In this document: positions 744 through 14,935 of the stretch, piece by piece
Layout: each line of letters starts with the position of its first letter
How positions within the stretch are numbered: the stretch's first letter is position 1
Source: a virus
Taxonomy: Duplodnaviria; Caudoviricetes
Virus record (IMG/VR): IMGVR_UViG_3300047157_000188
Coordinates: 1 to 59,504 of that record
Direction: 5' to 3' (one strand)
DNA: 59,504 nt
Program-made: the position numbers and the translations under genes
The notes under the pieces: generated by a model
What the model was told of the DNA's origin: nothing
Databases searched by the model: none
What the model saw: only the letters and a program-made list of their open reading frames with translations

Positions 744-875
744 TTTTATTCCACCATTTAACTAATCTATCCCATACTGGCCTAAAAAAAACAATACAAT
801 ATAAGCAACAACTGCTTCTATTGCTTTACCAATGATAGTAGTCATGGTTATTGATTGTTTTTTAATTGTTTATCA

Positions 876-1139
876 TCACCAAGCTGATCTTTCATAATCT
901 ATTTCTTTCTGTAGTTGTTCTTGAGCATATCTTTTTTGATGTTCTATATGCTTGTTGTCAGTTATATCATTGTAAATATTCATAGCAATTTTACTCAAGC
1001 TATTTGTAGTGCCATGTCTTGCAGGGTCTTCTAATAACTTCCACTCATAATTATAAGGATTAGCTTCGTCGCCAGATTTCTCTCTGTCAACTTTATAACC
1101 CTTATCCTTAGCCCATCGTTTAATGTTAGTCCAATTCAT
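876..1139 (-). CDS. Hypothetical protein
   Basis: 87-aa ORF with ATGA-type overlap to the upstream gene. Confidence 0.7.
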   Translation of the reverse strand: MNWTNIKRWAKDKGYKVDREKSGDEANPYNYEWKLLEDPARHGTTNSLSKIAMNIYNDITDNKHIEHQKRYAQEQLQKEIDYERSAW

Positions 1140-1318
1140 TTTTTATAACTCCTAGTCTCAGGATCATACTCCGTCATATCCTTATCATATCTTTTCCATG
1201 CTTCCAAGTGTTTAACCGCAGTCATTTGGGATTCTTGTCTTAGTTGTTGCAACATTTGATGCTCTATTAATTTATATAAATCTTCTATGTGTCCTCTAAC
1301 CTCATGGCAATTACCCAT
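1136..1318 (-). CDS. Hypothetical protein (likely start MGNCHE)
   Basis: Part of ORF 1136..1372; the ATG at 1318 follows the end of an upstream frameshifted gene. Confidence 0.55.
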   Translation of the reverse strand: MGNCHEVRGHIEDLYKLIEHQMLQQLRQESQMTAVKHLEAWKRYDKDMTEYDPETRSYKK

Positions 1319-1659
1319 ACCATCAAGTACCATGAGATATATGCTGTTTAATATCTGGCTGAACACAAGCATACTTTAAAGGTAGCTTGTCATTCTTGCT
1401 CATTTGTTTATATTCTTCAGACAGGTCATTCTTTAATCTTGGATAAGACTCTAAAGCACTCCTGCAAGCATGTTATGATTTAAATAATTCTATACTCTGA
1501 GTATTAGTAATGTCTTCAATAGTATCTAATTGATCTATCATATGTTTAATAATATTATTATAACCCACTTGTATCTGCGAAGTCTTTATATGTCATTCTT
1601 AACATTAAGATATTCTAATTCTTTTCTGTCTTTATCGGATAACCTAGACATGAACCTTC

Positions 1660-1985
1660 TTTCCTTTGTATAAATAACCCCCATTAGGTTGACATACTTC
1701 TAATATATCATTGAAATCTCTTCCAGATTATATCTAGCATCTTTTGCTGGAGCGTTCCAAGTTGCTGCTTTGTAAATATCCAAAGTACTCATTTTTAAGA
1801 AATGCGTGAACACTATCACTACCATGATCTGTCTTAATAATTTTAGTATACTTCTTATTAATCTTAAAATGAAAGTATGTAGTCTTTTGATCTCTTAGAG
1901 TATTTACCATGCTGACATAGCAAATGCTTTACTGCTCTAATACCTCACACCATTCTTCTACAAAATTAATATTTGTCAATCATAT
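1660..1985 (-). CDS. Conserved phage hypothetical protein (frameshifted)
   Basis: Fragments KKYTKII...SV-HAFLKMSTLDIYKAATWNAPAKDARYNL recall a small protein family common in large phages. Boundaries are approximate. Confidence 0.5.
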
Positions 1986-2009
1986 CAAGTCCTCCAAATT
2001 ATTAATTAA

Positions 2010-2243
2010 TTAAACCTGCGGTTTCTGGTCTGGGTCTACATTACTAGCAAATACTCGTTTTACTATTTCTAATTTAGAGTTATTAGATTCTAGGACAGAT
2101 ATATATTCATCTAGCACACCTACAATGTCAGGATGTTCTCCTACTCCAGCAGATCGAGTTAAATAGAGTTCTATTGTAGCAATCGACTCGTCGATCTTTG
2201 CCTGATACCTAGACTCTAATGCTTTTAAAAATTTTGCGCTCAT
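2010..2243 (-). CDS. Conserved phage hypothetical protein
   Basis: 77-aa ORF with GGAGG RBS and a GVGEHPDI motif. Confidence 0.7.
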   Translation of the reverse strand: MSAKFLKALESRYQAKIDESIATIELYLTRSAGVGEHPDIVGVLDEYISVLESNNSKLEIVKRVFASNVDPDQKPQV

Positions 2244-2456
2244 TTTTTTAAGTCCTCCGATATTACATAAGTAAAAGTAAATTCTTGTTGTTCTGCTGGT
2301 ATGTCGATATAATCTATTTTACCATTTGCATCACGTTTGTCAACATCTTTTTTTATATTATCGCTCATAGATTTGTCCTCCAGAGTATTTTTACAAGTAG
2401 ATTACCTACAACTACAGCAATAAATATTTCTAATATATTTGATTATATCCATTATC

Positions 2457-2744
2457 TTACATACATAGGTTGATAGATACCATTGTACCTGTGGCTGATA
2501 AGTAATTGTGTCTTTCTCTTCTCAAAAACCAGCAGCGTCTTTCTGTTACTACCGGAACATTATAGTAATACGGAACCCAACTGTAAACTGCTGTCGGTTG
2601 TGGTACTGTATAAGTTACCGTAGGAACAGGAGTAGTTACCACCATTGGCGGTGGTGCAGGTGCAACTGGCACACTTGCTACCCACTCACCAGTATATCCG
2701 ATAGAACCCCACAATGCAACCGCTAAAAATAAAAACGTCCTCAT
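2457..2744 (-). CDS. Small secreted Pro/Val/Tyr-rich protein, planctomycete-like
   Basis: Signal peptide MRTFLFLAVALWGS followed by a low-complexity PV/TY-rich body; GAGG RBS. C-terminus probably frameshifted. Confidence 0.55.
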   Translation of the reverse strand: MRTFLFLAVALWGSIGYTGEWVASVPVAPAPPPMVVTTPVPTVTYTVPQPTAVYSWVPYYYNVPVVTERRCWFLRRERHNYLSATGTMVSINLCM

Positions 2745-2771
2745 AACATTCCTCTTTCTTTGTTAAAATTT

Positions 2772-3281
2772 AAGTATTACTTCCTTCTATTGCCCTTCAT
2801 CTCATCCCTGAGCCTCCAAGCCCTATCTGTTTCTCTACTATTTAAAGTACCTTCATTAATATATTTTGCTGATTTCTTCGTTTGTCATTGGAACCCTAGC
2901 TTCGTCTTCATAATAATATTCCCAAGGTTTCCATCTAATTCTGGTATGATCTATAGCAACCTGTTTGTATTACCGTATTTATCTGTATAACTATATTTAA
3001 CCCAATACCATTCTTCTGCTGCCACTGCCTCTTCTATAACTTTAAAGTTTTTAGGATAATTATTAAAGGCGCATATCTTCATCTGTCCTGTATTGTATAA
3101 GTATTGCAAGACTCCTTCATCTTCAAAATCTATAGGGAAAAAGGTATTGTATATTGAATGTATGAACAATAGGATACTTCCATCCTACATATTCTGCATT
3201 TAGTATAAACCCTATAGACAATCCTATAAACAATAAAAAGAACTGATAGAATACTGTCCTGCAAACAGTAATAAGTATCAT
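2772..3281 (-). CDS. Hypothetical membrane-anchored protein (frameshifted; includes ORF 2951..3169)
   Basis: Hydrophobic N-terminus (FFLLFIGLSIGFIL) from ATG 3281, continuing through ORF 2951..3169 and a further frame to about 2772. Confidence 0.45.
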
Positions 3282-4373
3282 AATAAAGCCTGTGGTGGTT
3301 AGGAGGGATTTATAATGGCATGATACTTATGTTTACACCTACCTATCATATCTGTTGAAATAATGATGCGCTGCTATTTCTATTCGCTATTAAGTAACAA
3401 CTACAAATATAAATAACTCTGTCATCTGTTTAGTTTGTTAATTATATTTAATACTCTTCTCGCCAGTGCGGCTTGTCCTACAATCCTACCGTCGTCGTAG
3501 TCATTATAATATCCTGATGTAGATTCGTGTTCGAATTGTTTCCTTGAATTTTTTCGTTACATAACTTTACAATTTCAGCTGATACTTTATTGTCTACCGT
3601 AGGATCATTCATCTTTATATTTACTTCTTGCATAATCCACAATTTGTCCGGCAGTAAACGGTACTGTATTACCCCCTAAATAATATTCAGCACACAATTT
3701 TCTGGCATCTCTAGTTATTTTTATATTACTGTATATATGATTGTATGCTGGTCTGTATTCCATTAAGAATATATGCTCTGACTTTAGCGGTAAATGAAGC
3801 TACTAATAATTCCGCTTTGCTTGTTTTACTTCAGATGATATTCGACGTTTGTTCTTTTCTTCCCGTTTTTTCTTTTCTTCATGGATTCAGTCCTAAGCAT
3901 AGCAACAATTTTATTAGCTGCTCCTATCTGTATCAATAATCCTCTATTACGAGAATCTTCTAAAATATCTATTAACTTTAGTCTCTTGATTCTTAGCAGT
4001 TTCCCTTAACGTTTCTTAAAGTACCTTTACCATAGGTAGTGTCGAGATATAAGGCAAAAACATTCTTTAGTAAAATGTATCAGTCACTCGTCATCTAAAT
4101 CCTCTCCTATAAAGGTTCTTCCAGCAACTCATTACAAGTAGCACTAATTATACTATATGTATCGGTCTCTCTGTCAAACAGAATCTTTAGGTTGTATTTT
4201 CTTGTTTTTCTTTGCAAAAAATAACTACATCTCCGATTTAAATGCCATAGTTATCAAAAGCTATAAATGGACTGCCGATTTAATAAAATATTCATTAAAC
4301 TTAAAATGAGAATTACAACAAGGACATTCAAGCACTAAAGACTGTTATATATTATTCGCAAAAGCAATCATTA

Positions 4374-4958
4374 CTAATCCAGTCTCCCACTCATCTCTGT
4401 CCAGATCATAAGGTCTGCTTGAGCCAATGTCAAGCCGGGATAATGTTGTTTCCATGAGATATTTACATAGTCCTGCATACTTGAGCATATTTTTCTGGAT
4501 TTTGTGGAGTATTCTTTAGGGGCATCTTTTATATCACACTTAACTCTCATCCAGTTAAGGATATGAGTATCTAAGAACAACCTCGTCACAAAATTCTCTA
4601 GTATGTAACAAGAAAAATCTTGCAGTTTTTGGCCCAACACCATGAATATCCATCAGGTCATCTCTTGTACAAGTTCTTAGGTCTAATCTTAGCAGAGAAG
4701 AATAAAGCCTTGCGTATTCTATCATACTGTCCCGTCTTATGTGCAGTTAAATAATTATGTAGTTCTGATAGTTTAAGACTTCGTAATAAATTCAAAGGGA
4801 GTTTTATCTCCTCTATTTTTTAATAGTTTTGTAACTAATCTTGAAGTAGTGTCACTGTTCTTTCCTGCAACAAGGATGCAGAATATCCAAAATGATTCTA
4901 GTTCTACATCTGTACGATTGTAATTAGTAATATCTTTAGGATCAATCAAAGTTTCCAT
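4374..4958 (-). CDS. HhH-GPD superfamily DNA glycosylase, 8-oxoguanine glycosylase-like (frameshifted)
   Basis: Joined frames give ...DLMDIHGVGPKTARFFLLHTRE...LDTHILNWM...ADLMIW: an HhH motif with catalytic Lys plus the conserved Asp of LDTH. Confidence 0.7.
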
Positions 4959-5067
4959 CGTTAAAATCCGTTATCCAAAGTAGTAAGATAGACCAAGACA
5001 AAAGCAATTATTGTTGCTGTTGTACTCATTATACTACTTTATCGTCCACAGTCAATAGCAAACTTTA

Positions 5068-5507
5068 ATTATTTGCTACTTCGTGGATGTCCCTTTGGCA
5101 GTAAATCGTTGTCCTGCTTATATGCAGAATTTGCCGGTCTACCTGTTCTAAGTAAAGTTAAGAAAAGCATTTACTCTTGCCATTGCCCAACCATCTCTAC
5201 TCATTTTAGGAGCGTGAGAAGCTTGAGTAAGCACCAGCACCTCTTCTGTATACTGCCTTTAACATTCCTAAAGTGTAGCCTTGCTGCCTTTTCCTTTTTT
5301 ATTATGTTCACTAACTTTATTCTTTAACTTCTCTACAGTTTTTGCACTAAAACTAATCTTGCCCTTATCATCCTTAGCACTATCGGGCTTATTTTTCTTA
5401 CTACCTTTTTTCTGATCCTTTTTAGGTGCAGGAGTTCTACGAGGATCACTTTTCCCCGGCTTATCCGCTATTGCTTTTAGTGCTTCTAAATATTTGTTAG
5501 TTCTCAT
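5068..5507 (-). CDS. Conserved basic phage protein (frameshifted)
   Basis: ORF 5268..5507 continues in another frame as GMLKAVYRRGAGAYS..H..MSRDGWAMARVNAFL...YKQDNDLLPKGHP, a recurrent phage motif. AGGAG RBS. Confidence 0.6.
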
Positions 5508-5529
5508 AATATTTTCTCCTTTTTAAAAA

Positions 5530-5537
5530 GATACACC
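5530..5537 (-). promoter_or_regulatory. GGTGTAT motif, candidate phage-sigma promoter
   Basis: GGTGTATC about 22 nt upstream of ATG 5507; the same motif precedes structural genes. Confidence 0.45.
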
Positions 5538-5610
5538 ACAAATAACCATAAACATCTAGGAGTTGCTAACAAAAAATACAGAATACTTAATAAAAGTCTA
5601 ATTATTATGT

Positions 5611-5992
5611 TCATTTTTTCTTACCTTTTAACTCCGCTATACCCTGTGCTATATCCACAAGTCTCTCCCAGTTTTCCTCAACATACTCTGGTGGGCCTCC
5701 CATTTTTGCCTGTGTCTGTGCTATTTCTTCCGTTGGAACCATCTCAATGGCATCCCAAGGACAAACCAGTACATCATAAATTTTACCTTTGTTACCGGGA
5801 ACATGAATACATTGCTCACAACCTATACAAGTAGACAGATCAATTTCACACCATTGAGTTACTCCATTTTTAATTTGGAATATACAATCAACAGGACATA
5901 CTTCTAAGCAGGCTTCACACCCAGTACAATTATCTGCGTTGAATGATTGCTAATTCTTTTGGTATCTTTTTTCTAACTTTTTTTTCTGCCAT
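5611..5992 (-). CDS. 2x[4Fe-4S] dicluster ferredoxin (one indel; absent from ORF track)
   Basis: [17 protein letters not shown](+1 nt)NADNCTGCEACLEVCPVDCI...DLSTCIGCEQCIHVP...LVCPWDAIEM...GKKK. Contains CxxCxxCxxxCP and CxxCxxC...CP motifs; TAATG overlap with the DUF1501 stop. Confidence 0.9.
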
Positions 5993-7292
5993 TATGCTAT
6001 AATATCGTGTTGAATATTACCGAATACATCTGTCAATCTAAAATCTCTACCGCTGTATCTGTAAGTAAGTTTAGTATGATCAATACCCATTAGATATAAT
6101 ATAGTAGCATGTAAATCGTGCATGTCAATGAGTCTACTGCTTTATGTCCAAAATCATCAGTAGTACCGTATCTCATGCCACCCTTTACGCCACCGCCTGC
6201 CATCCACACAGTGAACCCACCATTATTATGGTCTCTTCCTGTAGCACCAGCCTTGATGCCCGGAGTACGACCAAACTCACTACCGAATAAAACTATAGTG
6301 TCCTCAAACATGCCAGAATCTTTTAAATCCTGTAGCAACGCACCAATAGGCTGATCAATAGCCGTTGCATTGTTTTTTAGTTTGTTGCCAATGTCTTGGT
6401 GCATATCCCAACCACCGTGACCAATCTCGACAAAACGAACACCAGCCTCACTAAACTTTTTTGCTAATAAACACTGCTTACCAAATTTAGCAGTTGCTTT
6501 ATTATTGATACCGTATTTCTCAAGAGTCTTTGGAGATTCATTTGCTATATTAATTGTGTTTGGTACACTTGTTTGCATTTTAAATGCCAACTCATAACTT
6601 TCAATCAACCCCTCAAGCCTACTGTTCTCACCTCTTAATTGTAGATGGTTCAGGTCACTGAGGAAATCCAGATTTTGCCTCTGTTCATCCCTACTAATTG
6701 GACTTTTAAGATTAGGTATTGCATTTGCCATGTTGCCAGCGTTTACTGCCGTACCCTGATAAATAGCAGGTAAAAATGCACTACCATAATTCTCAGGCCC
6801 AACATTAGCGTCGATAGTAATAAATCCCGGTAGTTCTTTGTTCTCTGTTCCTAGGCCATATAAAAGCCAACTACCCATACTTGGACGAGTAAATTGGAAA
6901 TTACCTGTATGAAGTAATTGTCTAGCCTGATTATGATTACCACTCTTACTCTTCATACCATTAATCAAACATAGATCATCAGCATGTTTTCTCAGGTGTG
7001 GAAAGTTCTCACTAATCTCAATACCACTTTCACCAGCAGGAGTCAATGGAACTGCGGGTTTAATAATCTTACGACCTTTACTTACTGGATCATCAGTACC
7101 GTCTTTCTCTACCATTAAAGGTTTATGATCAAAAGTATCTGTATGTGTCATCCCGCCATTCATGTACATGAATATAATCTTTTTATTACTCAGTGCTGCT
7201 TCTTCTGCAAGCAGTCCTTTGAGTGCAAGCATACCGAATCCAGCACTTGCTGTTTGTAATAAGTGTCGTCTGTTAAAATAGTTACTTAACAT
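5992..7292 (-). CDS. DUF1501 family protein with Tat-like signal (frameshift near 6130)
   Basis: NRRHLLQ twin-arginine-like leader; [61 protein letters not shown] motifs. True C-terminus [30 protein letters not shown] lies in the next frame. Confidence 0.92.
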
Positions 7293-9774
7293 TTCTAAAT
7301 TCTCCTGTGCATATTAGTATTTGGATTAGGTTTGCGAGATTCTTTTCCATAATCTCATTCTTCTTTTTAATATCTACTTTACTTGTGTAGTCAACAAACT
7401 CTTCGCCTTCTGGAGTCTTGCCAACTCCTAAACCAATCTGCTCTGCTTGCTCTGTATCCTTCAGATAAAAAGTCATTGCTTTTTCAAATCTCTTCTTTAG
7501 ATGGTGGTCTCCCAAGAATCTTTTGCCATATACTATGAAGATTATTATGGTGCAATAACCTTGGCATAGTTCTACCCATCCTCATATTATTTTGCCACAT
7601 TTCTCTTGCCATTTCTTTTGCCAGAGCAATAATCTTTGGATTGTTCATTAGGAATAGTGCTTGTGTACTCACGGTAGTCACGTTCCTTTCTGCTGCCATA
7701 AGGCTGTTGTCTGGTCTGTCAAATGTATCCAAGACTTCTATTTTGTTGTCCCTCAAAGAAGGAATATAAATAGACCTAGACTTGGTTTCTCCAATATACT
7801 TTCTTAATTCTTTTCCCGGTGCTTTAATTCCTGTTTGGAAATCGCTTATGTTCTTATGCGACTCGTCTAGTTTGCCTGAGACAAACAACAGACTGTCCCT
7901 AATCTGTTCAGCCTCTAATCTTTTCTCATTCATTCGCCAAACATATACATTGTCTGGGTCAATCTCAAAATTTTCTTTATTAAAGTTACTGCTACGTCTG
8001 TAAGCATTACTCATAACAATAGTTTTAATTAATCTTTTGTTTGACAACTTGCCAGTAGTAAACTTACTGGAAAGATAGTTCATAAGTTTAAGATTAGTTG
8101 GCTCACCACCTAGTATACCAAAGTTATCGAAACTGTCAAGTATACCTTTGCCGAATAAATGTCGCCACACTCTATTTACATGAACCCTGTATGTCAAAGG
8201 ATTAGTTTTGTGTGCAATCCATTCTGCCAGTTGATAACGTCCACTGGTATTATCAAAGTTGAGATTAGGTCTGTCACTAAATATTTCTGGTAATCTTCTT
8301 GGTACTTCATCACCCAGATTATTTACTTCGCCTCTGATTGCTAATTTAATCTCAGACATTTTATCTTTATCTTTTACAGTCATTACAGGCTCAAGATATT
8401 CCAGAGTATTTTAAACTCTTCTTTCCTGTAATCTTTTTAAGTTCTGCCATCTTGTATCCAGAGTCTTTTGTCTCTTACCAAGTTCTCTGTTTAGTTGTTC
8501 TTCTGTCGCTCTTTTGTTCCATGTCTTAATGGATTCTATTTGAGTTTGCAAATTCTTTATATCACAAAGAAGGAACCATTCTTTTATTCTTTTTTGTTTG
8601 TATAAATCTTCTGTTTCTTTAGTGACTAAATAGCCATACTCACCAAGATAACCAGTGTTATTGTTTCCTCTATACAAACCATCAAGGTTCTTTGTATTGT
8701 TAAATAAACCAGCAACACCGTAGTAATCCTCTTGACTAAAAGGATCAAACTTATGATCATGACACCTTGCACAACTCAAAGTCATACCAAGAAAACCTCT
8801 GGTGATAGCATCTATCTGGTCATCATTGCGGTCTGCTTCAAACTGTCTAGTCTGTGCCTGTATATTTTTTGTGCCTATTGTCAGATAGCCTGTAGCAATT
8901 CTGTTCGTATTGTATTGCTCAAAAGTTTTATGTGGCAATAGATCACCAGCAATTTGTTCTTTTATAAATTCATCGAATGGTTTATCTTCATTAAAACTAT
9001 CTATAACATAATCACGGTATCTCCAAGCATAAGGACTAACTAAATTTCTGTCTTGTCCACTGCTCTCGCCATACCTTGCTACATCCAGCCAATGCCTTCC
9101 CCATTTCTCGCCAAATCCTTCATCATCAAGTAAAGTATCGACTAAATTTTCATAACGATTTTCACTCTTGTCCTGCATAAACTGTCTTATCTGTATCTCA
9201 CTTGGAGGCAATCCAATAAGATCAAAATATAATCTACGCATTATTGTATAGTCATCTGCTGGTTCCACAGGTTTGAGACCCTGCTTCGCCATCTCACGAT
9301 CAAGAAGACTATCTATTTCTGTACCATCTTCGTAACTAGCAACAGCAGGACGTTTAACCTGCTTGAATGACCAGAACTGTCTAGCCTGTCTAAGTTCTAT
9401 TGCTCTGTTCTCATGCTTGTAACGTGGATCAGGTAATCCCATTTTAATCCATTGTCGAAATAAGTCAACAGTCTTTTTATCTAATGGGTTATCTGGCGGC
9501 ATATCACCAGACTCTACATAATCAAACAGAGGGCTTTCTTCTGGCTTACCGGGAACCACACTTGGGCCAGAATCGCCACCCTGTAATACTCCCAGCCTAG
9601 TATCTATTGCAAATCCACCTTTAGTTTTTTCTGAGGCAGAAGAATGACACGAATAACACTGCGTCTGCAAAACTGGTAAGATATTATCATTAAAAAATTT
9701 AACACCACTTTTATCTTGAACTCACTTAACTCAACAGCAAAACTAGCCATATCATTAGTTACCACAATATACAA
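7282..9774 (-). CDS. Planctomycete cytochrome c (PSCyt1) + DUF1549 + DUF1553 (PSD1) protein, split by indels into ORFs 9604..9807, 8411..9670, 7484..8383 and 7282..7515
   Basis: CYSCH and CARCHDHKFDP haem-type motifs; GDSGPSVVPGKPEES, RRLYFDLIGLPP, GEKWGRHWLDVARY, YRDYVIDSFNEDKP, NPLTYRVHVNRVWRHLFGKG, RLEAEQIRDSLL, TQALFLMN. Confidence 0.92.
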
Positions 9775-9776
9775 TG

Positions 9777-10172
9777 TTATACTCCTGTAGGTATTACAGT
9801 ATCGCAATTATTTGTAAAAACTATCCCTTTGTTTTCTGGTGCTGGAAATGGCTTATCAAATTTATATATTTGAGAAACTACCCAACCATATTTATCCTTA
9901 TTATCTTTCCAACCAAACCCACTATCTTTATCTACCTTATGTCTATTATAGTCAGATTCCCATTCTTGTATATTATTATATTTAAAACTATGACTGAATG
10001 TTATTGTTCCAATAATTCTAGCTTTAAACTTGCCAAATTTACCGGGAGTCTCAATTAATGCTAACTCTTCACCTTCGTATTTTTGTGGTAAGGGATACGA
10101 CCTCGTTTCAACACACTTATCTAAATTAATAAGTAATTCAGACCAAGGGTATTGAATATTAATTCCAATCAT
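9777..10172 (-). CDS. ASCH domain protein
   Basis: GINIQYPWSELLINLDKCVETRSY...IIGTI...YGWV pattern. Confidence 0.85.
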   Translation of the reverse strand: MIGINIQYPWSELLINLDKCVETRSYPLPQKYEGEELALIETPGKFGKFKARIIGTITFSHSFKYNNIQEWESDYNRHKVDKDSGFGWKDNKDKYGWVVSQIYKFDKPFPAPENKGIVFTNNCDTVIPTGV

Positions 10173-10362
10173 ATTTTTGTAAATATTCCTGTATGGTATT
10201 CTTGAGTATGAGCAAATCCATTTTACTCATCGGATGCAAACTGTCAATATATCCCCAACTAATTTCTCCTGTTTCTGTAGTATACGGTCTATAAATTTGT
10301 ACCGATTTTACTTCTGGGTCTATCTCTCCATCGACCACTTTAAATTTTATTGACTGTTCCAT
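10159..10362 (-). CDS. Hypothetical protein
   Basis: 67-aa ORF overlapping the ASCH start. Confidence 0.6.
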   Translation of the reverse strand: MEQSIKFKVVDGEIDPEVKSVQIYRPYTTETGEISWGYIDSLHPMSKMDLLILKNTIQEYLQKYDWN

Positions 10363-10397
10363 AATTAATAACCTTATTAGTTTTTAGATTATTAATC

Positions 10398-10404
10398 ATA
10401 CACC
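10398..10404 (-). promoter_or_regulatory. GGTGTAT motif upstream of the 10362-to-5611 gene run
   Basis: Reads TATCGGTGTATGATT on the minus strand; intergenic. Confidence 0.4.
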
Positions 10405-10418
10405 GATATAATATATTA

Positions 10419-10616
10419 TTATTCCAATAAATCGTCATCAATCATAATGTCATCTTGCATCAACAAATCGCCAAATGCCTCAGTATTAATTTCCTTTTTA
10501 GTATGAACAATAGTAGGTCTTGCTGTATCTGGATCAAATAATATAGAACAAATTATACAAATACTACCCAACAAGAATAACAAAACAAAGATAACCGCCG
10601 CAATATTGCCTAACAT
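10419..10616 (-). CDS. Small membrane protein
   Basis: N-terminal hydrophobic helix and acidic tail. Confidence 0.6.
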   Translation of the reverse strand: MLGNIAAVIFVLLFLLGSICIICSILFDPDTARPTIVHTKKEINTEAFGDLLMQDDIMIDDDLLE

Positions 10617-10645
10617 ATCTTAATTTCCATTTCATTTGTGGGTAA

Positions 10646-10831
10646 TTAACCCTTGATTATATTTTCATTTGCGAGTTTGGTGGGAATTTTACCCAATAAT
10701 GCTCTATCAATGATGTGTAGATTCTGTGCTTCTTTATGTTTTATTTGTGTCAAATTACCCTTGAGTTGAGCCTGTAACACCTTGCGTATAAGGTTTATTT
10801 CGCTTACAGTGAGAAGTACGGTTTTATACAT
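10646..10831 (-). CDS. Hypothetical protein
   Basis: 61-aa ORF with GGGG RBS, downstream of a promoter. Confidence 0.6.
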   Translation of the reverse strand: MYKTVLLTVSEINLIRKVLQAQLKGNLTQIKHKEAQNLHIIDRALLGKIPTKLANENIIKG

Positions 10832-10875
10832 TTTTCCCCTAAAATATTAACTTTTCTACTCTTATCAACCATACC

Positions 10876-10935
10876 AGTATATACCATAGCAACACGCCTG
10901 TCAATAGTATCGACTATAGCAGATATGATCCTTTA
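10876..10935 (-). promoter_or_regulatory. Tandem sigma28-type + sigma70 promoter
   Basis: TAAA-N17-GTCGATAC followed by TTGACA-N17-TATACT. Confidence 0.7.
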
Positions 10936-11044
10936 ATAATTCCCTTCTTATACTCTATTTTTACCTCCGTTCCTTACAATAAGTAAAAAATTTAGATTTA
11001 TGCAGAGAAATAGGTAAAAATTATGGAAAAAACAAATAAAATAG

Positions 11045-11073
11045 TTGTAAAGTTGGATTGTTAGTGTTATAAT
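11045..11073 (+). promoter_or_regulatory. Sigma70 promoter with extended -10
   Basis: TTGTAA-N17-TATAAT with TGn; ATG lies 4 nt downstream, so the transcript may be leaderless. Confidence 0.6.
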
Positions 11074-11077
11074 ATGT

Positions 11078-11536
11078 ATGAGAAAAGAGACAATAAGGGC
11101 AATAGTTGATATAATTGTTGCAGAAAATAAAAATATAATAGTATTAGAAGAAGAATACTGGGATGAAACTATAGATACTAAGTGGCATGTTGCTAGGTAT
11201 GAGAATAGGCATAATGAACTTGTTTATAAAATTATAGATAATAAGATATTTATTGATAGTAAGCCACTTAAAATACATGATTATATTATTGATATTAATG
11301 GTATATTAAGAATTGCTGATGGACACCCTTTAGGTTCCGAATTTCCTTATTGTGTCAATGGTGCAGGAAGATTGATAGTAGATAAATTAGGTATAATAAA
11401 ATATATTGATAATTGGTCTGGTCATTATAAACCCACCGAACAAGAATTTAATAATAGTTTAAAATTTTTAAATAATTTAACTATAGAACGAAAGTATATA
11501 TGGGATCATTCTTTATTTCCTATCTTCCCTGTATAA
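11078..11536 (+). CDS. SGHYKP-motif protein, putative ADP-ribosyltransferase-like toxin domain
   Basis: YIIDINGILRI..GHP...GAGRLIVDKLGIIKYIDNWSGHYKPT; the only plus-strand gene in this block. Confidence 0.55.
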   Translation: MRKETIRAIVDIIVAENKNIIVLEEEYWDETIDTKWHVARYENRHNELVYKIIDNKIFIDSKPLKIHDYIIDINGILRIADGHPLGSEFPYCVNGAGRLIVDKLGIIKYIDNWSGHYKPTEQEFNNSLKFLNNLTIERKYIWDHSLFPIFPV

Positions 11537-11707
11537 ATTAGGTACTGGTTGATCTATTATAGGTAATAAACTAATAACCATAACTACCTCATCTAATTTC
11601 CTATTATCTTTAATATAATTATTAATTAATTTCTCTATCTTTTGGCACACAGATTCACAAGCCAAAGGTTCTTGAGTCTTAAATCCTATAGCTATTTTAT
11701 CTTCCAT
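11513..11707 (-). CDS. Hypothetical protein
   Basis: 64-aa ORF convergent with the 11078 gene. Confidence 0.55.
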   Translation of the reverse strand: MEDKIAIGFKTQEPLACESVCQKIEKLINNYIKDNRKLDEVVMVISLLPIIDQPVPNLYREDRK

Positions 11708-11713
11708 ATTTTT

Positions 11714-11816
11714 GACTGACTGTCACCATTTCGCACAACCCGATTATATTAGAAAATACAAAAATTGACTGACTGTAACTATTTTGCAACTATCTCTATA
11801 GATTAGGAAAAACAAA
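11714..11816 (-). repeat. Two tandem copies of the ~50-nt element (TTGT-n5-CTAAY-hairpin-...-ACAGTCAGYC)
   Basis: 11714-11762 and 11767-11816, both starting gactgactgt on the plus strand. Confidence 0.75.
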
Positions 11817-12332
11817 TTATGAGTTTGCTTCTAATAGTGCCTTCATAGATTCCATGAACTCATCGTCTGTCAACTCTGGTTCTGGGTCTGTACTACGCAC
11901 GACAGGATTATTGTGAGATGGTTTAGGAGATGCTGTTTTAGGTATATTACCAACAATAATATTACTATTTTTAGCTATATCTTTAATTGCTAAAATATCT
12001 ACATATTCTTTATCGAATTTAAAATCAAAGTATGCTCTAAGAAGATCAGGATTCTCACTACGTTCATAATAAGACCCATCACCTAACATCACCCAAAGAT
12101 CATATCCATGCTTTTTAGTTTCTTCCAGATCATTGCTAGGTTCGACTATTGAATACTTTAAAATCTGAGGGTCTGTAATATATTTAGACTTATGTTCTAG
12201 TTTAATCATAGGGCATCTTTCAATTAGTTCGCCCTGTTTAACATCAGTCTTTGCCATAACATGATACAGACCATCATGTTTAATAAGTTGTCGTCTTTTT
12301 CCTAATCCAGATAATACTACAAAATCCTTCAT
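11817..12332 (-). CDS. Degenerate SET-domain protein
   Basis: VMAKTDVKQGELIERCP, LGDGSYYERSENP and ILAIKDIAKNSNIIVG align by eye to SET motifs A.EDIKKGELIEECP, LGYGSLYNHSxxPN and A.RDIxxGEEITINY. Confidence 0.65.
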   Translation of the reverse strand: MKDFVVLSGLGKRRQLIKHDGLYHVMAKTDVKQGELIERCPMIKLEHKSKYITDPQILKYSIVEPSNDLEETKKHGYDLWVMLGDGSYYERSENPDLLRAYFDFKFDKEYVDILAIKDIAKNSNIIVGNIPKTASPKPSHNNPVVRSTDPEPELTDDEFMESMKALLEANS

Positions 12333-12385
12333 ATATTTTCCTTGTTCATTTTGTGAAAACTCAACCCTTGGTCATCACACTATAT

Positions 12386-12421
12386 AATAAAAAATCGCCA
12401 ACCTTTGGCAAGGTGACGATT
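12386..12421 (-). terminator. Probable intrinsic terminator
   Basis: Minus strand ATCGTCACCTT-GCCA-AAGGTTGGCGAT followed by TTTTTATT. Confidence 0.6.
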
Positions 12422-12445
12422 TAATATGTTTTAAATTATTAAAAA

Positions 12446-12715
12446 TTAAATAGTTAAACCACTAGGAGTAGAATCTACAATTTCCAATTTGTCTGACTTA
12501 GAATTTAATTTAGCAAAACAACTATAAGATATTTGATTACCCTCTAATTGGGTTTCTGCATCAACCATATATCTGGTATAAACATTTATTCTCCATCTAT
12601 TATCATAAACATTCATAGCCTTACACATTACTAAATTTTTAGGTTTACCAATCTCTTTAATCAAAAGACTACATACCGGGCCGTCCACTTCCGTAGACTT
12701 AGGATTTATTATCAT
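12446..12715 (-). CDS. Hypothetical protein
   Basis: Strong AGGAGGTG RBS; IGKPKNL..KAMNVYDNRWRINVY. Confidence 0.75.
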   Translation of the reverse strand: MIINPKSTEVDGPVCSLLIKEIGKPKNLVMCKAMNVYDNRWRINVYTRYMVDAETQLEGNQISYSCFAKLNSKSDKLEIVDSTPSGLTI

Positions 12716-13050
12716 ATTTCACCTCCTGTAAAAATAAATTTTAATTTAACCAAAATAAATAAGACCAATTCTAATCTTGACAAAACGTAGTTCAGGATTA
12801 ATAATTATGCAGGTCGGTTGGTAGTAATATATACTATTTCAATATTAATATACCCCTTTCTAGTCTAAACAGAATACAAGTAAAATGAGAATTAAAACCA
12901 GCATAGGCTTGACTCTTTCTATTTATTAATTATAATAAAGTGGCTAATGTCTCTAGACCTCAACCCATCTAGTTCCATTATACCATATATATCGACCTCC
13001 ACAATCTCAGGAGTATTCTAAAATTACATACTCATAGCAATTATAATTCT

Positions 13051-13098
13051 GGCTGACTATAGACAACTTTAGCAAACCTTATTGATTAGCTAGTACAA
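13051..13098 (-). repeat. ~50-nt element copy
   Basis: Minus strand TTGTACTAGCTAATC-AATAA-GGTTTGC...TATAGTCAGCC. Confidence 0.6.
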
Positions 13099-13196
13099 TT
13101 ATAATAATTATTAATATAATACTCTTTCTCTCCTGCATCACCGTATCACTATACCATTATATCGGACAGGTGCATCCATTACCATTAGAAAATATC

Positions 13197-13252
13197 TGTA
13201 AGTCCTTGTCAGTAAACAACTTAACTAATTTTCGCGGGCATCTTCTATGCCA
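13197..13252. repeat. 29-bp palindrome + 8 nt + GCGGGC box + sigma54-type box on minus strand
   Basis: TGTAAGTCCTT-GTCAGTA-AACAACTTAAC (13197-13225), GCGGGC (13234-13239), TGGCATAGAAGATGC on minus strand (13252-13238). Confidence 0.75.
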
Positions 13253-13253
13253 T

Positions 13254-13295
13254 AAAAGAAGGCAGGCCACTCCCCACCACAAGGAATGACCTGCC
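13254..13295 (-). terminator. Intrinsic terminator after the DUF932 gene
   Basis: GGCAGGTCATTCC-loop-GGAGTGGCCTGCC then TTCTTTT. Confidence 0.8.
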
Positions 13296-13321
13296 CGACG
13301 CACACCACGAAAGGAGAGCGA

Positions 13322-14269
13322 TTAGAGAGCGTTAGCGTACTCTGTAGCGAGTGCTAGTGCCCTGTTGTTAGCAGTACCGTTCTGACCGAACCACAGGCTT
13401 TCCATGCGGTTATTGGCGTTACGGCCTTTGTTATAATTTAGATACTCGTTGAAGCCATTGTAGGCTGCCCACCAAGTACCACGGACTCCCGGCATATCCT
13501 GCTTTGGCCCATGAATCGTAGAGAGAATATCATCGAGGACATTCTTAGTACGAGTCTTGAGGTCGTCGTCAGGAGTCTTGTCGATATTCAGCAGAACCTT
13601 GACGTATTTGCGAACGTCAGCCTGATTGAAGTCTCGACTAGCCAGAAAGCGGAACTGTTCCGCAGTTGCCTCGAACTGTGCATTGATATTGTCCATGATG
13701 TCACGAACATTATCAAGATTAGCTTGGGCACTCTTAGTATGTCGAATACGTAGTAGATTGCTTTCTTTGTGGGAATGAGCGAAAGCTAAGGTATTGACAC
13801 AAACAACACGGATTGGGGTGTAGCCCACACGAATAGCAGTTGTGCCATCGTGACTGTTGGAAAGCAGAATAAACTTCTGCACCTCGTCACCCTTGACAAT
13901 TTCGCTGGGGTCACGGTTTAATTGAGCAAGTGCCCAAACCTTCTGACCACCACTAAGCGAACCTCCCGTGTGGAGACTACACTCGCCAGCGTCTACGAAT
14001 GGCTGAAACCACTCGAAAGCATCTTTATTCTGAAGTGGTACGTATCTTGGGCCGACCACTCCTAGAATACTACCATCGCTTTTGCGATAGGTTGCTTTGG
14101 CAGGTACGTCATAACCATCTTTGGTTACGAGATCCTTGACGCCAACTTCCCAATCTAAACCAGATTTTTCGATGGCTTCGCTGATTGTTGGAGCATCTTC
14201 CAACTTCTCACCAAGACCATGCCAAGGTTTTGCTCCGGTGTAAAACATAGATTCAACATTAGCAGGCAT
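13322..14269 (-). CDS. DUF932 / DUF945 phage-plasmid protein (TIGR03299-like)
   Basis: MFYTGAKPWHGLG, LGVVGPRYVPLQN.DAF, GGSLSGGQKVW, LLSNSHDGT, TPIRVVCVNTL, GTWWAAYNG. Confidence 0.9.
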   Translation of the reverse strand: MPANVESMFYTGAKPWHGLGEKLEDAPTISEAIEKSGLDWEVGVKDLVTKDGYDVPAKATYRKSDGSILGVVGPRYVPLQNKDAFEWFQPFVDAGECSLHTGGSLSGGQKVWALAQLNRDPSEIVKGDEVQKFILLSNSHDGTTAIRVGYTPIRVVCVNTLAFAHSHKESNLLRIRHTKSAQANLDNVRDIMDNINAQFEATAEQFRFLASRDFNQADVRKYVKVLLNIDKTPDDDLKTRTKNVLDDILSTIHGPKQDMPGVRGTWWAAYNGFNEYLNYNKGRNANNRMESLWFGQNGTANNRALALATEYANAL

Positions 14270-14308
14270 TTTAGTTCCTTTCGTAAGAGTAATGTCCTGT
14301 ATGCTTTA

Positions 14309-14348
14309 AGTATATCATATATATCGTCGCTGTCAACGATAATCTTTA
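14309..14348 (-). promoter_or_regulatory. Interleaved sigma28-type + sigma70 promoter
   Basis: TAAAGATTATCG-TTGACA-GC-GACGATAT-ATATGA-TATACT. Confidence 0.75.
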
Positions 14349-14365
14349 GTAAAATTTTTAATATC

Positions 14366-14408
14366 CGTAAGTCGTTACCCAGCAAGGGTTTACGCAGATT
14401 TTGCCCGC
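14366..14408. repeat. 29-bp palindrome + 8 nt + GCCCGC box
   Basis: CGTAAGTCGTT-ACCCAGC-AAGGGTTTACG, then CAGATTTT, then GCCCGC. Confidence 0.75.
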
Positions 14409-14446
14409 TGGCTTTACCATAATTACCAAACCTTGCAGTTTAGGTA

Positions 14447-14935
14447 TTACAGATACGGTACGCCTAAGTCACGCTTACAGTATTCTGGCATAGTTCTGTA
14501 AGCACATTGATCTTTTATATAAGACCACACACCCATACATTTAGCTATAGGTATTTCTTCTTTAATATTTTTAATAATATGTTTTACTGTGCCACCAGAG
14601 CATACGAGATCGTCAATAATAATATACTGACGAGTACTAGCACCCTCAACCATAAAATCCGAATACCCATCTGTGTTTTTCCTTACCACAATGATATTCT
14701 TTTTTAATAATTCTGCTATCTGTGGAACCACCATTAATCCACTAGTTCCACAACAGGCGATAGCATCGTATGATCCGTCATACTTTTTTAAACCAGCATA
14801 AGTACTCATTACTACTTGATTACGATACTTATGGCTCAAAACCCTTGAAGTATGGCTACATCCCTGTATAACCTTACCATCTGGTGTTCTTCTGAACTCA
14901 TCTAGTTCTTGCTGTAATACGTTCATCTTGTCCAA
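14447..14935 (-). CDS. Type I phosphoribosyltransferase
   Basis: PRPP-binding motif YIIIDDLVCSGGTV; DAIACCGTSG; IIVVRK. Confidence 0.85.
   Translation of the reverse strand: MDKMNVLQQELDEFRRTPDGKVIQGCSHTSRVLSHKYRNQVVMSTYAGLKKYDGSYDAIACCGTSGLMVVPQIAELLKKNIIVVRKNTDGYSDFMVEGASTRQYIIIDDLVCSGGTVKHIIKNIKEEIPIAKCMGVWSYIKDQCAYRTMPEYCKRDLGVPYL

What the first reader, a model, noticed from the sequence alone, without database searches (positions are those of the whole stretch)
5611..9774. Phage-encoded planctomycete signature operon: PSCyt/DUF1549/DUF1553 + DUF1501 + 2x[4Fe-4S] ferredoxin
Seen: three overlapping minus-strand genes. They are a CxxCH-containing DUF1549/DUF1553 protein, a Tat-signal DUF1501 protein and a dicluster ferredoxin joined by a TAATG overlap. 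All three have the AT-rich codon style of the neighbouring phage genes. Established: the DUF1549/1553 + DUF1501 pair is hugely expanded in Planctomycetota, is also present in Verrucomicrobiota, and has no known function. Inference: a virus has kept one compact copy and coupled it to an electron carrier. That suggests a periplasmic redox or envelope module that benefits infection, and offers a minimal system for finding the function of this family. I do not know of a described phage example but could not search.
Basis: partly seen in the sequence, partly recalled or inferred. Interest (0 to 1): 0.9.

Follow-up and report, generated by a model that had tools for sequence, protein, structure and literature searches.

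The report
Planctomycete cytochrome–DUF1501 module in marine phages
A family of large marine phages carries an intact, selectively maintained copy of a two-protein module (a haem-motif protein plus a phosphatase/sulfatase-like enzyme) that is hugely expanded in Planctomycetes and has no known function, so the phages offer a small natural version for working out what it does.

Summary
On the minus strand of 5611-9721 lie a PSCyt1/DUF1549/DUF1553 gene (A), a Tat-signal DUF1501 gene (B) and a 2x[4Fe-4S] ferredoxin gene (C).

In this record all three are broken, and A lacks its start and signal peptide. Near-identical contigs from four independent public runs carry the frame-restoring letter at every break. 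Backbone genes in window 1-5600 are broken just as often. The breaks are therefore most likely errors of the record.

Twenty-two viral loci, including a 171-kb record rated complete, hold close relatives, nearly all intact. Pairwise dN/dS is 0.02-0.13.

Viral DUF1501 forms one clade among Planctomycetota sequences that are about 50% identical.

C is an independent gene family with Planctomycetia relatives:
- it is absent from 80 of 80 cellular A-B loci;
- it is absent from 10 of 22 viral A-B loci;
- it occurs in 10 viral loci that lack A-B.

So "coupled to an electron carrier" is not supported as a rule.

B models as an alkaline-phosphatase-superfamily fold without the sulfatase formylglycine motif. 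A complex model places the DUF1553 domain on B (0.84 against 0.00 for controls).

This is a real phage auxiliary module, which I found undescribed in the searches I ran. Its biochemical function is still unknown.

The parts
8411..9721 (-). Gene A, first piece: PSCyt1 (CYSCH) plus PSCyt2/DUF1549 (CARCHDHKFDP). The start codon and signal peptide are missing in this record.
   Evidence: Pfam. ORF 8411..9670. Homology to L011, L148 and G001 begins at 9721/9719. Relatives carry an N-terminal signal peptide.
8409..8453 (-). Short frame-shifted stretch that creates the TAA stop at 8411-8413 between the DUF1549 and DUF1553 parts.
   Evidence: Public contigs read -2, +1, +1 here, net 0 (table 4). Relatives have one open frame across it.
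7484..8383 (-). Gene A, second piece: PSD1/DUF1553.
   Evidence: Pfam E 9.3e-72. In the same frame as the first piece in relatives.
7282..7515 (-). Gene A, C-terminal tail (77-aa piece ending EFRNVK), displaced by one extra base at 7489/7490.
   Evidence: Alignment to L003. One base is left out at 7489/7490 in 4 of 4 runs. 88% identical to the G001 tail.
6090..7292 (-). Gene B, main piece: DUF1501 with a twin-arginine signal. Its start overlaps the end of A by 11 nt.
   Evidence: Pfam E 1.4e-115; sequence.
5992..6141 (-). Gene B, C-terminal piece (DUF1501 profile positions 348-390), displaced by one missing base at 6128-6131.
   Evidence: Pfam. One base is put in at 6128-6131 in 4 of 4 runs. 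One frame in relatives.
5611..5992 (-). Gene C: 2x[4Fe-4S] ferredoxin. Its ATG overlaps the DUF1501 stop (TAATG at 5994-5990). It is broken by one extra base at about 5938-5942.
   Evidence: Pfam Fer4 families. One base is left out at 5942 in 4 of 4 runs. The intact 126-aa form is in L003. Conserved Cys pattern.
9720..10172 (-). Upstream backbone gene (131 aa, no family) and the right junction of the cassette at 9719/9720.
   Evidence: The same gene lies upstream of the operon in L011 and L148, at 85% aa identity. No public contig bridges 9719/9720.
5072..5612 (-). Downstream backbone gene (lysine-rich, itself frame-broken) and the left junction at 5612/5613.
   Evidence: Its homologue follows the ferredoxin in L011 (L011 11714-12175). 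No public contig bridges 5612/5613.

Best explanation
The locus is a genuine phage-carried auxiliary module of planctomycete origin. The copy in this record is written with sequencing or assembly errors.

Shown:
- The genes and their domains are present.
- Intact versions exist in many viral contigs and in independent public runs.
- There is one viral DUF1501 clade.
- Selection on all three genes is strongly purifying.

Inferred mechanism:
- Gene A is exported by Sec (signal peptide) and receives haem at two CxxCH motifs from the host's cytochrome c maturation system.
- Gene B is exported folded by Tat. It is a metal enzyme of the alkaline-phosphatase superfamily, with an NPP/PafA/sulfatase-like core. 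It lacks the sulfatase formylglycine motif and has an invariant His in the segment xHPQAxxx[LM]HTG.
- In the periplasm the DUF1553 domain and C-terminal tail of A clamp the helical cap of B next to B's conserved pocket. This gives a two-subunit cytochrome-enzyme complex.
- During infection of a marine Planctomycetia host, the phage copy supplements the host's many paralogues. The likeliest purpose is to raise turnover of a periplasmic organic ester or a related substrate, for nutrients or energy. That is the usual logic of marine phage auxiliary genes.

The ferredoxin is a separate cytoplasmic auxiliary gene with Planctomycetia relatives. It became translationally coupled to B in one sublineage and is not an integral part of the module.
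For: Domains.

Record errors:
- At each of the four breaks inside the operon, contigs 99% or more alike from X1, X2, X3 (DNA) and X5 (an RNA library), from 4 studies, carry the frame-restoring indel.
- Window 1-5600 has at least 8 frame breaks in backbone genes relative to L011. Window 9780-16657 has none.
- Further breaks lie at about 42.6-45.1 kb.

Phage carriage:
- G000 is a virus record. The window holds TerL, a tape-measure protein and tail-fibre genes.
- G001 is 171,040 bp and rated 100% complete by CheckV. It has RNR, DNA polymerase, DnaB, primase, rIIA and a tape-measure homologue.
- L011 is syntenic with window 1-16000 and has the operon at the same place. L148 matches it from 16000 down to 8595, where that contig ends inside gene A.

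Spread, over 22 viral loci with B at least 57% identical:
- B is a full ORF in 18, cut by a contig end in 3, and broken in 1 (L018).
- A is full in 14, cut by a contig end in 4, and has no upstream DNA in 4.

Selection, by my own NG86 script:
- A, 21 unsaturated pairs: dN/dS 0.064-0.098.
- B, 21 unsaturated pairs: 0.036-0.119.
- C, 10 pairs: 0.016-0.127.

Origin:
- 14 viral B rows form one clade (SH-aLRT 100) inside a set of Pirellulaceae, Planctomycetaceae and Gemmataceae rows (supports 81-94).
- The best 80 cellular relatives are 46-54% identical.
- Every organism-named ferredoxin relative is from Planctomycetota, Planctomycetia, Pirellulales or Planctomycetales, at 59-64% identity.
- G001, G002 and G003 also carry DUF1559 prepilin-like genes. 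That this family is expanded in Planctomycetes is recalled, not taken from a call.

Haem motifs and signals: 12 of 12 viral and 61 of 61 cellular full-length A proteins have exactly two CxxCH motifs. All 12 viral ones start with a signal-peptide-like segment.

Fold of B:
- AF2 pLDDT is 91.9.
- Foldseek's top hits are S1 sulfatases, E 3e-8.

A-B contact:
- Complex score 0.84; best of 3 controls 0.00.
- The mark was reached by 58 of 80 solved complexes and 2 of 110 mismatched pairs.
- These counts hold only roughly here: my own alignments were used, and the job had three chains with A split in two.
- The runs agree in at least 96% of contacts, and the partner's pLDDT is at least 87.
- No solved structure of either family was found by sequence, so the pass is unlikely to come from memory.

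Gene order: A-B adjacency is also the rule in cells. 71 of 80 loci hold an A homologue.
Against: - No contig in the four runs bridges 5612/5613 or 9719/9720. The 99%-alike operon contigs continue into other flanks. One X1 contig that matches 9712-10300 runs on into sequence unlike the window. The window's own allele may therefore be misjoined.
- The window's operon is closer to G001 (83% nt) than to its syntenic relative L011 (77-78%). The flanks show the reverse.
- Phage GC (0.31-0.38) lies far below that of the cellular homologue loci (0.46-0.73). This sits uneasily with a planctomycete host.
- Tree support for the immediate planctomycete sister groups is weak, and the tree was made by the quick method.
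- Haem binding, export, metal content, substrate and any benefit to the phage are all untested.
- The presence of contigs in an oligo-dT RNA library does not show transcription.
- The complex score is a model's confidence, not a measurement.
Confidence: 0.6

Rival explanations
1. The window's operon allele is an assembly chimera. The backbone of one phage (L011-like) has been joined to the operon of a co-occurring G001-like phage. The window's exact sequence, including the loss of A's signal peptide, would then exist in no virus. This does not remove the finding, because the L011-like backbone carries its own operon at this site.
For: - In 4 of 4 runs the operon contigs diverge from the window exactly at 5613 and 9719. 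No contig bridges either junction.
- An X1 contig 99.7% alike over 9712-10300 runs on for 233 nt unlike the window.
- Mosaic identities: the operon is 83% to G001 but 77-78% to L011, while the flanks are 75-86% to L011 and 71-76%, in patches, to G001.
- About 275 nt that hold A's start in L011 are missing.
Against: - Logan contigs break at branch points and drop rare variants, so a missing bridge proves little (stated).
- A chimera would need two joins exactly at the ends of the shared segment.
- Natural cassette exchange between phages gives the same mosaic.
Confidence: 0.3
2. The frame breaks are real. This phage recently received the cassette and it is decaying as a pseudogene, while other phages keep it intact.
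For: - None of the indels lies in a long homopolymer.
- The signal peptide is absent.
- The rest of the allele is about 99% identical to intact alleles in public runs, as expected soon after a transfer.
Against: - Backbone genes in window 1-5600 are broken at a similar rate (at least 8 breaks), as are genes at 42.6-45.1 kb. The breaks are not specific to the operon.
- A phage with a dozen or more broken genes is less likely than a low-quality stretch.
- All four runs show the intact reading.
Confidence: 0.1
3. The ferredoxin is a working partner of the module. For example, it could be a cytoplasmic maturation or electron-donating factor for the Tat precursor of DUF1501, in the way NapF is thought to serve NapA (recalled).
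For: - The TAATG/ATGA start-stop overlap with DUF1501 is kept in 12 of 22 viral loci.
- C is the most conserved of the three genes: 93-100% aa identity where B is about 79%.
- In phage L022 a thioredoxin-like gene sits in the equivalent position, after a DUF1501 gene.
Against: - 0 of 80 cellular A-B loci have a ferredoxin homologue within about 6 kb.
- 10 of 22 viral A-B loci lack it.
- 10 of 23 viral ferredoxin loci show no A or B.
- It has no signal peptide, whereas A and B are predicted periplasmic.
- Close cellular homologues exist as a family of their own in Planctomycetia.
Confidence: 0.15
4. The contigs are not phages but fragments of cellular genomes or other elements misfiled as viral, so the module is ordinary host DNA.
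For: IMG/VR holds some misclassified contigs (general knowledge). L026-L034 carry DUF1501 pairs and I did not check them for phage genes.
Against: - TerL, tape-measure and tail-fibre genes in the window.
- RNR, DNA polymerase, DnaB, primase and rIIA in G001, with CheckV 100%.
- GC is 0.31-0.38 against 0.46-0.73 in cellular loci.
- The viral B clade is 46-54% identical to the nearest cellular genes.
Confidence: 0.03

Closest known systems
The DUF1501 + PSCyt1/PSCyt2/PSD1 two-gene module of Planctomycetota, Verrucomicrobiota and Lentisphaerae (Kamneva et al. 2012, PMC3542564, passages read; He et al. 2017, PMC5615132, passages read)
   Same: - Same domain architecture: PSCyt1-PSCyt2-PSD1, then DUF1501.
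- Same gene order.
- Signal peptide on A and twin-arginine signal on B.
- Two CxxCH motifs.
- It matches the simplest of the architectures those authors describe.
   Different: - Encoded by large marine phages.
- GC is 0.31-0.38 instead of 0.46-0.73.
- About 50% identical to the nearest cellular copies, forming its own clade.
- No carbohydrate-binding or Big_2 inserts.
- In part of the clade a ferredoxin gene is fused on by a start/stop overlap.
Alkaline-phosphatase superfamily enzymes: NPP-type phosphodiesterases, PafA-type phosphatases, S1 sulfatases
   Same: The core fold of DUF1501:
There is also weak sequence similarity around the strand before the sulfatase 'SDHG' segment.
   Different: - 9-16% identity.
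- No conserved C/S-x-P-x-R.
- The sulfatase 'DH' is replaced by an invariant E-F-G-R.
- An invariant His120 sits where, by my recalled reading of the sulfatase signature, the nucleophile would be. This was not checked by superposition.
- Tat export, and a cytochrome partner.
Marine phage auxiliary metabolic genes for nutrient uptake and electron transfer (e.g. cyanophage pstS, phoA, petF, petE; recalled, not looked up here)
   Same: Host-derived, compositionally ameliorated, under purifying selection, and placed in a variable region of the phage genome.
   Different: - The function of the family is unknown.
- The products are predicted periplasmic and include a c-type-cytochrome-like protein.
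- The presumed host phylum is Planctomycetota. My searches of the held library found no paper describing phages of this phylum that carry these genes.
Small 2x[4Fe-4S] ferredoxins of Planctomycetia (auto-named 'RnfB' by one source)
   Same: 59-64% identity, the same length (about 130 aa) and the same Cys pattern.
   Different: - Carried by phages, in some next to DUF1501 and in others alone.
- The RnfB name is an automatic label. The defining features of RnfB were not tested here.

Membership tests
PSCyt1/PSCyt2(DUF1549)/PSD1(DUF1553) proteins | All three Pfam domains above their gathering scores, in this order, in one protein. | tested here: met
   Window pieces score 51.5, 263.7 and 241.8 bits against cut-offs of 22, 29.8 and 28.5. 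The intact L003 protein has all three in one 833-aa frame. In the window itself the frame is interrupted.
PSCyt1/PSCyt2(DUF1549)/PSD1(DUF1553) proteins | Two CxxCH haem-attachment motifs (PSCyt1, and CxxCHDHKFDP in PSCyt2). | tested here: met
   CYSCH and CARCH are in the window. 12 of 12 viral and 61 of 61 cellular proteins have exactly two. Actual haem binding cannot be tested here.
PSCyt1/PSCyt2(DUF1549)/PSD1(DUF1553) proteins | N-terminal export signal. | tested here: not met
   Not met in the window copy: there is no in-frame start, and the segment upstream of 9721 is charged and out of frame. Met in 12 of 12 intact viral relatives, judged by eye. The public runs continue into a signal-peptide-like segment (loose ends at 9719).
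DUF1501 (PF07394) | Full-length Pfam match above the gathering score. | tested here: met
   387.1 bits plus 42.4 bits in two pieces in the window (cut-off 27). 429.9 bits over profile positions 2-389 of 390 in L003.
DUF1501 (PF07394) | Twin-arginine signal at the N-terminus. | tested here: met
   [18 protein letters not shown] in the window. R8 and R9 are nearly invariant in 85 sequences. No dedicated Tat predictor was available.
S1 (formylglycine) sulfatases | Conserved C/S-x-P-x-R motif that is converted to formylglycine. | tested here: not met
   Only 18 of 85 DUF1501 sequences have [CS]x[PA]xR anywhere, and no column conserves it. The conserved segment is xHPQAxxx[LM]HTG, with His invariant.
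S1 (formylglycine) sulfatases | Sulfatase fold. | tested here: met
NPP / alkaline phosphatase (two-metal) enzymes | Thr/Ser nucleophile and the Asp/His ligands of two metal ions. | tested here: inconclusive
2x[4Fe-4S] bacterial-type ferredoxin | Two CxxCxxC...CP cluster motifs. | tested here: met
   C22, C25, C28, C32-P33 and C55, C58, C61...C77-P78 are invariant in 11 of 11 sequences. Fer4 and Fer4_21 are above their cut-offs.
RnfB (name given by one source to homologues) | Membrane anchor and the Rnf operon context. | not tested
   Only the automatic name was seen. The phage gene stands alone or after DUF1501.
Phage auxiliary metabolic gene | Host-type gene inside a phage genome, with phage genes on both sides, kept by selection. 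| tested here: met
   Context in G001, L011 and the window. dN/dS is 0.02-0.13. That it alters host metabolism during infection cannot be tested here.

The most novel reading that the evidence does not exclude
Large marine phages of Planctomycetia carry, as a portable unit, the minimal form of the most expanded orphan system of their hosts. That minimal form shows the general design. The DUF1553 domain of a two-haem cytochrome docks on the helical cap of DUF1501 and passes electrons to (or takes them from) a two-metal, alkaline-phosphatase-type pocket in which the usual nucleophile is replaced by an invariant histidine. This would be a redox chemistry not known in this superfamily. The phage would use it to tap a periplasmic substrate for energy or nutrients during infection.
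Probability: 0.2. Interest if true: 0.85.

Novelty: new member of a known kind. Interest (0 to 1): 0.62.

Why it matters
DUF1501 and the PSCyt/PSD proteins are among the largest protein families of Planctomycetes. The passages I read from Kamneva et al. 2012 and He et al. 2017 leave their function open, and my searches found no later paper that assigns one.

A single-copy, compact version that evolves under strong constraint on phage genomes gives three things:
- It shows the pair has a function that pays off within one infection cycle.
- It gives a small, paralogue-free pair of genes to express and assay.
- Together with the complex model, it gives a concrete, testable interface between DUF1553 and DUF1501.

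It also marks out an uncultured clade of 150-195 kb marine phages. Three kinds of planctomycete-type genes in these phages (A-B, the ferredoxin, and DUF1559 pseudopilin-like proteins) point to Planctomycetia as host. I found no described phages carrying these genes for that group.

Tried and rejected
- **First AF2 job on DUF1501:** with 10 sequences it gave an unusable model (pLDDT 51.6). I repeated it with 85 rows.
- **Isolate phages:** tblastn of DUF1501 against 50,697 GenBank phage records found no match. The module is therefore absent from isolates in that collection. The window's TerL reaches only 26% identity to Bacillus phages, which gives no host clue.
- **tRNAs:** none in G001 and one tRNA-Arg in the window. 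These give no host clue.
- **Ferredoxin context in cells:** I searched five planctomycete genomes (G004-G008). There was no close match, so the cellular context of the ferredoxin remains unseen.
- **Literature:**
  - DUF1501 + DUF1553 returned 0 papers.
  - Any of five family terms returned 27 papers, two of them relevant.
  - Planctomycetes + phage + DUF1559 returned 0.
  - Six phrases for planctomycete or verrucomicrobial phages returned 9, none relevant judging by listing and abstract starts.
  - DUF1501 + viral returned 4, none relevant. The one phage paper (PMC5418858) reports only a weak CDD hit in a 61-aa protein (passage read).
- **Supplements:** Fig. S14 of PMC3542564, and Text S1 and Fig. 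S7 of PMC5615132, could not be seen. They may hold relevant architectures.
- **RNA library:** the operon contigs in oligo-dT library X5 are not counted as evidence of transcription.
- **Uncovered parts:** parts of the stretch without cover in single runs (table 2) are not interpreted.
- **Ferredoxin-DUF1501 complex:** not modelled. The single complex job went to A-B.


Full report
**What is in the window.**
- The minus strand of 5611-9721 holds three genes (Pfam):
  - A: PSCyt1 + PSCyt2/DUF1549 (8414-9670) and PSD1/DUF1553 (7487-8383).
  - B: DUF1501 (6093-7292, with its last 43 profile positions in 5995-6141).
  - C: a Fer4-type ferredoxin (5614-5949).
- All scores are far above the curated cut-offs, so these matches are not chance.
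- The sequence shows CYSCH and CARCH motifs in A and a twin-arginine N-terminus in B. It also shows an 11-nt A/B overlap and the TAATG overlap of B and C.
- Operon GC is 0.376, against 0.358 for the rest of the window and 0.46-0.73 for cellular homologue loci.

**The copy in this record is broken.**
- Alignment to the intact relative L003 (A 833 aa, B 433 aa, C 126 aa) shows these defects:
  - a stop at 8411-8413 inside a shifted stretch;
  - one extra base at 7489/90;
  - one missing base at 6128-6131;
  - one extra base near 5938-5942.
- Gene A has no start or signal peptide. Homology begins at 9721, and about 275 nt that hold A's start in the syntenic contig L011 are absent.

**Are the breaks real?**
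- I looked for public runs that hold the stretch. Fifteen runs hold at least half of its sampled words. The 20 runs that hold it or a part come from 17 studies of seawater, marine or viral metagenomes.
- I laid the contigs of four runs from four studies on window 5200-10300. Contigs that otherwise differ by 0-3 letters per 800-1200 nt show the following:
  - one base left out at 5942;
  - one base put in at 6128-6131;
  - one base left out at 7489/90;
  - a net-zero -2/+1/+1 at 8409-8453.
- That is the frame-restoring change at every break, in all runs that cover it.
- Against the intact ORFs of L011, backbone genes in window 1-5600 carry at least 8 further frame breaks. Window 9780-16657 carries none.
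- Genes at about 42.6-45.1 kb are also broken relative to G001.
- The breaks therefore belong to low-quality stretches of the record, not to the operon. A real, decaying pseudogene is not excluded; I give it about 0.1.

**Is the operon really joined to these flanks?**
- In all four runs the operon contigs leave the window exactly at 5613 and 9719, and none bridges either junction. One X1 contig matches 9712-10300 and then runs on unlike the window.
- The operon is 83% identical in DNA to G001 but only 77-78% to L011. The flanks are closer to L011.
- This mosaic fits either a chimeric assembly or natural cassette exchange. I give the chimera about 0.3.
- Either way, L011 is syntenic with window 1-16000 and has its own intact operon at the same place. 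L148 matches the window from 16000 down to 8595, where that contig ends inside gene A. Carriage at this locus by this kind of phage does not depend on the window.

**It is phage DNA.**
- G000 is a virus record, linear, rated about 40% complete by CheckV. The window holds TerL, a 1565-aa tape-measure protein and tail-fibre genes.
- G001 is 171,040 bp and rated 100% complete. PHROGs finds RNR, a split DNA polymerase, DnaB, primase and rIIA. It has tail genes homologous to the window's. An ATP-dependent DNA ligase lies directly upstream of A.
- Outside the operon the two phages are distant: 23-66% aa identity where any match exists, and no TerL match at 1e-8.
- In G001 the homologues of window 1-3520 and 9793-10177 are neighbours, about 11 kb from the operon. 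The cassette therefore sits at different places in different phages.

**Spread and selection.**
- A scan of IMG/VR with B gave 32 loci. Twenty-two have B at least 57% identical:

| Gene | Full ORF | Cut by contig end | Broken | Other |
|---|---|---|---|---|
| B | 18 | 3 | 1 (L018) | - |
| A | 14 | 4 | - | no upstream DNA in 4 |
| C (directly after B) | 12 (one of them broken) | - | - | absent in 10 |

- Several of these loci are near-duplicates (L003, L017 and L004; L008 and L025).
- Pairwise dN/dS, from my own Nei-Gojobori script:
  - A: 0.064-0.098 over 21 unsaturated pairs.
  - B: 0.036-0.119 over 21 unsaturated pairs.
  - C: 0.016-0.127 over 10 pairs.
  - Pairs involving L003, L020 or L021 are saturated at synonymous sites for A and B.

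**Origin and host.**
- The scan of species-representative genomes found at least 590 relatives of B. The best 80 are 46-54% identical and nearly all are from Planctomycetota or Verrucomicrobiota MAGs.
- I built a quick IQ-TREE of 103 rows: all 80 cellular rows and 23 viral rows. I left out the near-duplicates L004, L006, L010, L012, L016-L018 and L025, and also L028-L030 and L032-L034.
- In that tree the 14 window-type viral rows form one clade (SH-aLRT 100). It sits inside a set of Pirellulaceae, Planctomycetaceae and Gemmataceae rows with weaker support (81-94). L023 and the L026-L031 genes fall elsewhere on long branches.
- The ferredoxin has 969 homologues at E <= 1e-5, mostly 58-69% identical. 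Every one that carries an organism name is from Planctomycetota, Planctomycetia, Pirellulales or Planctomycetales. Some lie on contigs of up to 4.5 Mb.
- G001 has two genes for DUF1559 proteins with a prepilin N-methylation motif, and G002 and G003 have one each. One of them lies about 3 kb from the operon. That this family is expanded in Planctomycetes is my recollection, not a call.
- Three independent gene families thus point to Planctomycetia as donor and probable host.
- The low phage GC (0.31-0.38) argues against this, or at least needs explaining.

**The ferredoxin is not part of the core module.**
- None of the 80 cellular loci has a homologue within about 6 kb, whereas 71 of 80 hold an A homologue. 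In nearly all of these it lies just upstream of B. Seven of the nine loci without A have less than 1.1 kb of upstream DNA.
- Of 23 viral ferredoxin loci, 13 lie after B. The other 10 (45-65% identical, GC 0.34-0.47 in the five examined) show no A or B at E <= 1e-4 and sit among unrelated phage genes.
- Phage L022 has three DUF1501 genes. One is followed by a thioredoxin-like gene instead.
- The ferredoxin has no export signal.
- I read it as a separate cytoplasmic auxiliary gene that became translationally coupled to B in one lineage. I give a maturation role for the Tat precursor 0.15.

**What the proteins look like.**
- All 12 intact viral A proteins begin with a signal-peptide-like segment. 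They have exactly two CxxCH motifs, the second inside CxxCH[DN]HK[FY]DP. The same two motifs occur in 61 of 61 cellular full-length A proteins.
- The PSCyt1 part weakly matches the dihaem cytochrome FoxE (E 9e-4).
- B, folded with 85 sequences, gives pLDDT 91.9.
- Foldseek lists S1 sulfatases first (E 3e-8; TM 0.34-0.42).
- So B is a member of the alkaline-phosphatase superfamily that cannot be assigned to any known branch.
- The sulfatase motif C/S-x-P-x-R is not conserved (18 of 85 rows have it anywhere). The sulfatase 'SDHG' segment aligns to an invariant E-F-G-R.
- Invariant residues: D55, K57, H120, S138, D296, H298, E339, R342, R353, H355.
- Two readings here rest on recalled motifs and were not superposed: that H120 occupies the nucleophile position, and that the Asp/His set mirrors a two-metal site.

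**A and B probably bind.**
- I modelled A residues 140-395 and 495-833 together with mature B.
- The score was 0.84, and the best of 3 controls was 0.00.
- The mark was reached by 58 of 80 solved complexes and 2 of 110 mismatched pairs. These counts hold only roughly here, because I used my own alignments and a three-chain job.
- The runs agree in at least 96% of contacts, and the partner's pLDDT is at least 87.
- The confident contacts join DUF1553 (A 552-831, chiefly 697-716 and the C-terminal 818-831) to the helical cap of B (165-240). They also touch B residues 121, 125 and 134-135, next to invariant H120 and S138.
- No solved structure of either family was found by sequence, so recall of a known complex is unlikely.
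- This is a model's confidence, not a measurement.

**Most likely working.**
- Shown: the gene content, intactness in nature, viral monophyly and purifying selection.
- Inferred:
  - Sec export and haem loading of A, and Tat export of B.
  - A periplasmic A-B complex in which the cytochrome serves the metal pocket of B.
  - A supplementary role during infection of a marine planctomycete, probably in the use of an organic ester or related substrate for nutrients or energy.
- The substrate and the chemistry are unknown.

**Comparison and novelty.**
- The architecture equals the simple two-gene form described for PVC bacteria, whose function those authors leave open (PMC3542564 and PMC5615132, passages).
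- I found no report of it in a virus. There was no match in 50,697 GenBank phage records, and no relevant paper in five searches. Supplements were not visible.
- I file it as a new member (phage-borne) of a known but uncharacterised kind. It is of good interest because it offers a minimal pair and a testable interface, and because it flags a clade of probable planctomycete phages.

Noticed in passing
window 1-5600 and 42600-45100: Many frame breaks in backbone genes relative to L011 and G001. There are at least 8 in 1-5600 and 3 within 44610-45097, and none in 9780-16657. The record has stretches of low sequence quality.
   Followed up: partly
G001 (L039:10723-11793 minus strand; L003:14603-15586), G002, G003: Phage-encoded DUF1559 (SBP_bac_10) proteins with a prepilin N-methylation motif. 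This is another family recalled as typical of Planctomycetes. One lies about 3 kb from the operon. The window has none.
   Followed up: partly
L022:3579-12376: A related phage carries three DUF1501 genes: one followed by a 624-aa protein with no family, one after gene A, and one followed by a thioredoxin-like gene. DNA ligase, an Ogg-type glycosylase and a methyltransferase lie upstream.
   Followed up: partly
L026-L034: A second group of viral contigs (GC about 0.38-0.40) has tandem pairs of DUF1501 genes only 25-31% identical to the window's. They sit on long branches far from the main viral clade. I did not check whether these contigs are phages.
   Followed up: no
L137-L146: The same ferredoxin family (N-terminus ...RKKLPKELAIINADNCTGCEAC...) occurs alone in diverse viral contigs with GC 0.34-0.47, among small genes of unknown function. 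Its role there is unknown.
   Followed up: partly
window 24261-27014: A GlmS-like glutamine-fructose-6-phosphate aminotransferase (605 aa, phrog_13807, E 4e-199) lies next to a nucleotide-sugar epimerase (310 aa). These look like cell-surface sugar auxiliary genes.
   Followed up: no
window 15226-15299: tRNA-Arg (TCT), the only tRNA in the window. G001 has none.
   Followed up: no
G001 (L035-L038): Very large ORFs in the structural region: 4824, 3525 (tape-measure homologue), 3030, 2217, 1914 and 1561 aa.
   Followed up: no
L018 / L136: In a 194,787-bp viral contig, DUF1501 and the ferredoxin are frame-broken at places different from the window's. This is probably another error-prone record.
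   Followed up: no
window 14447-14935: A 162-aa phosphoribosyltransferase-like protein, just under the Pfam cut-off (25.6 against 26.3 bits). It is conserved at 83-85% in L011 and L148.
   Followed up: no
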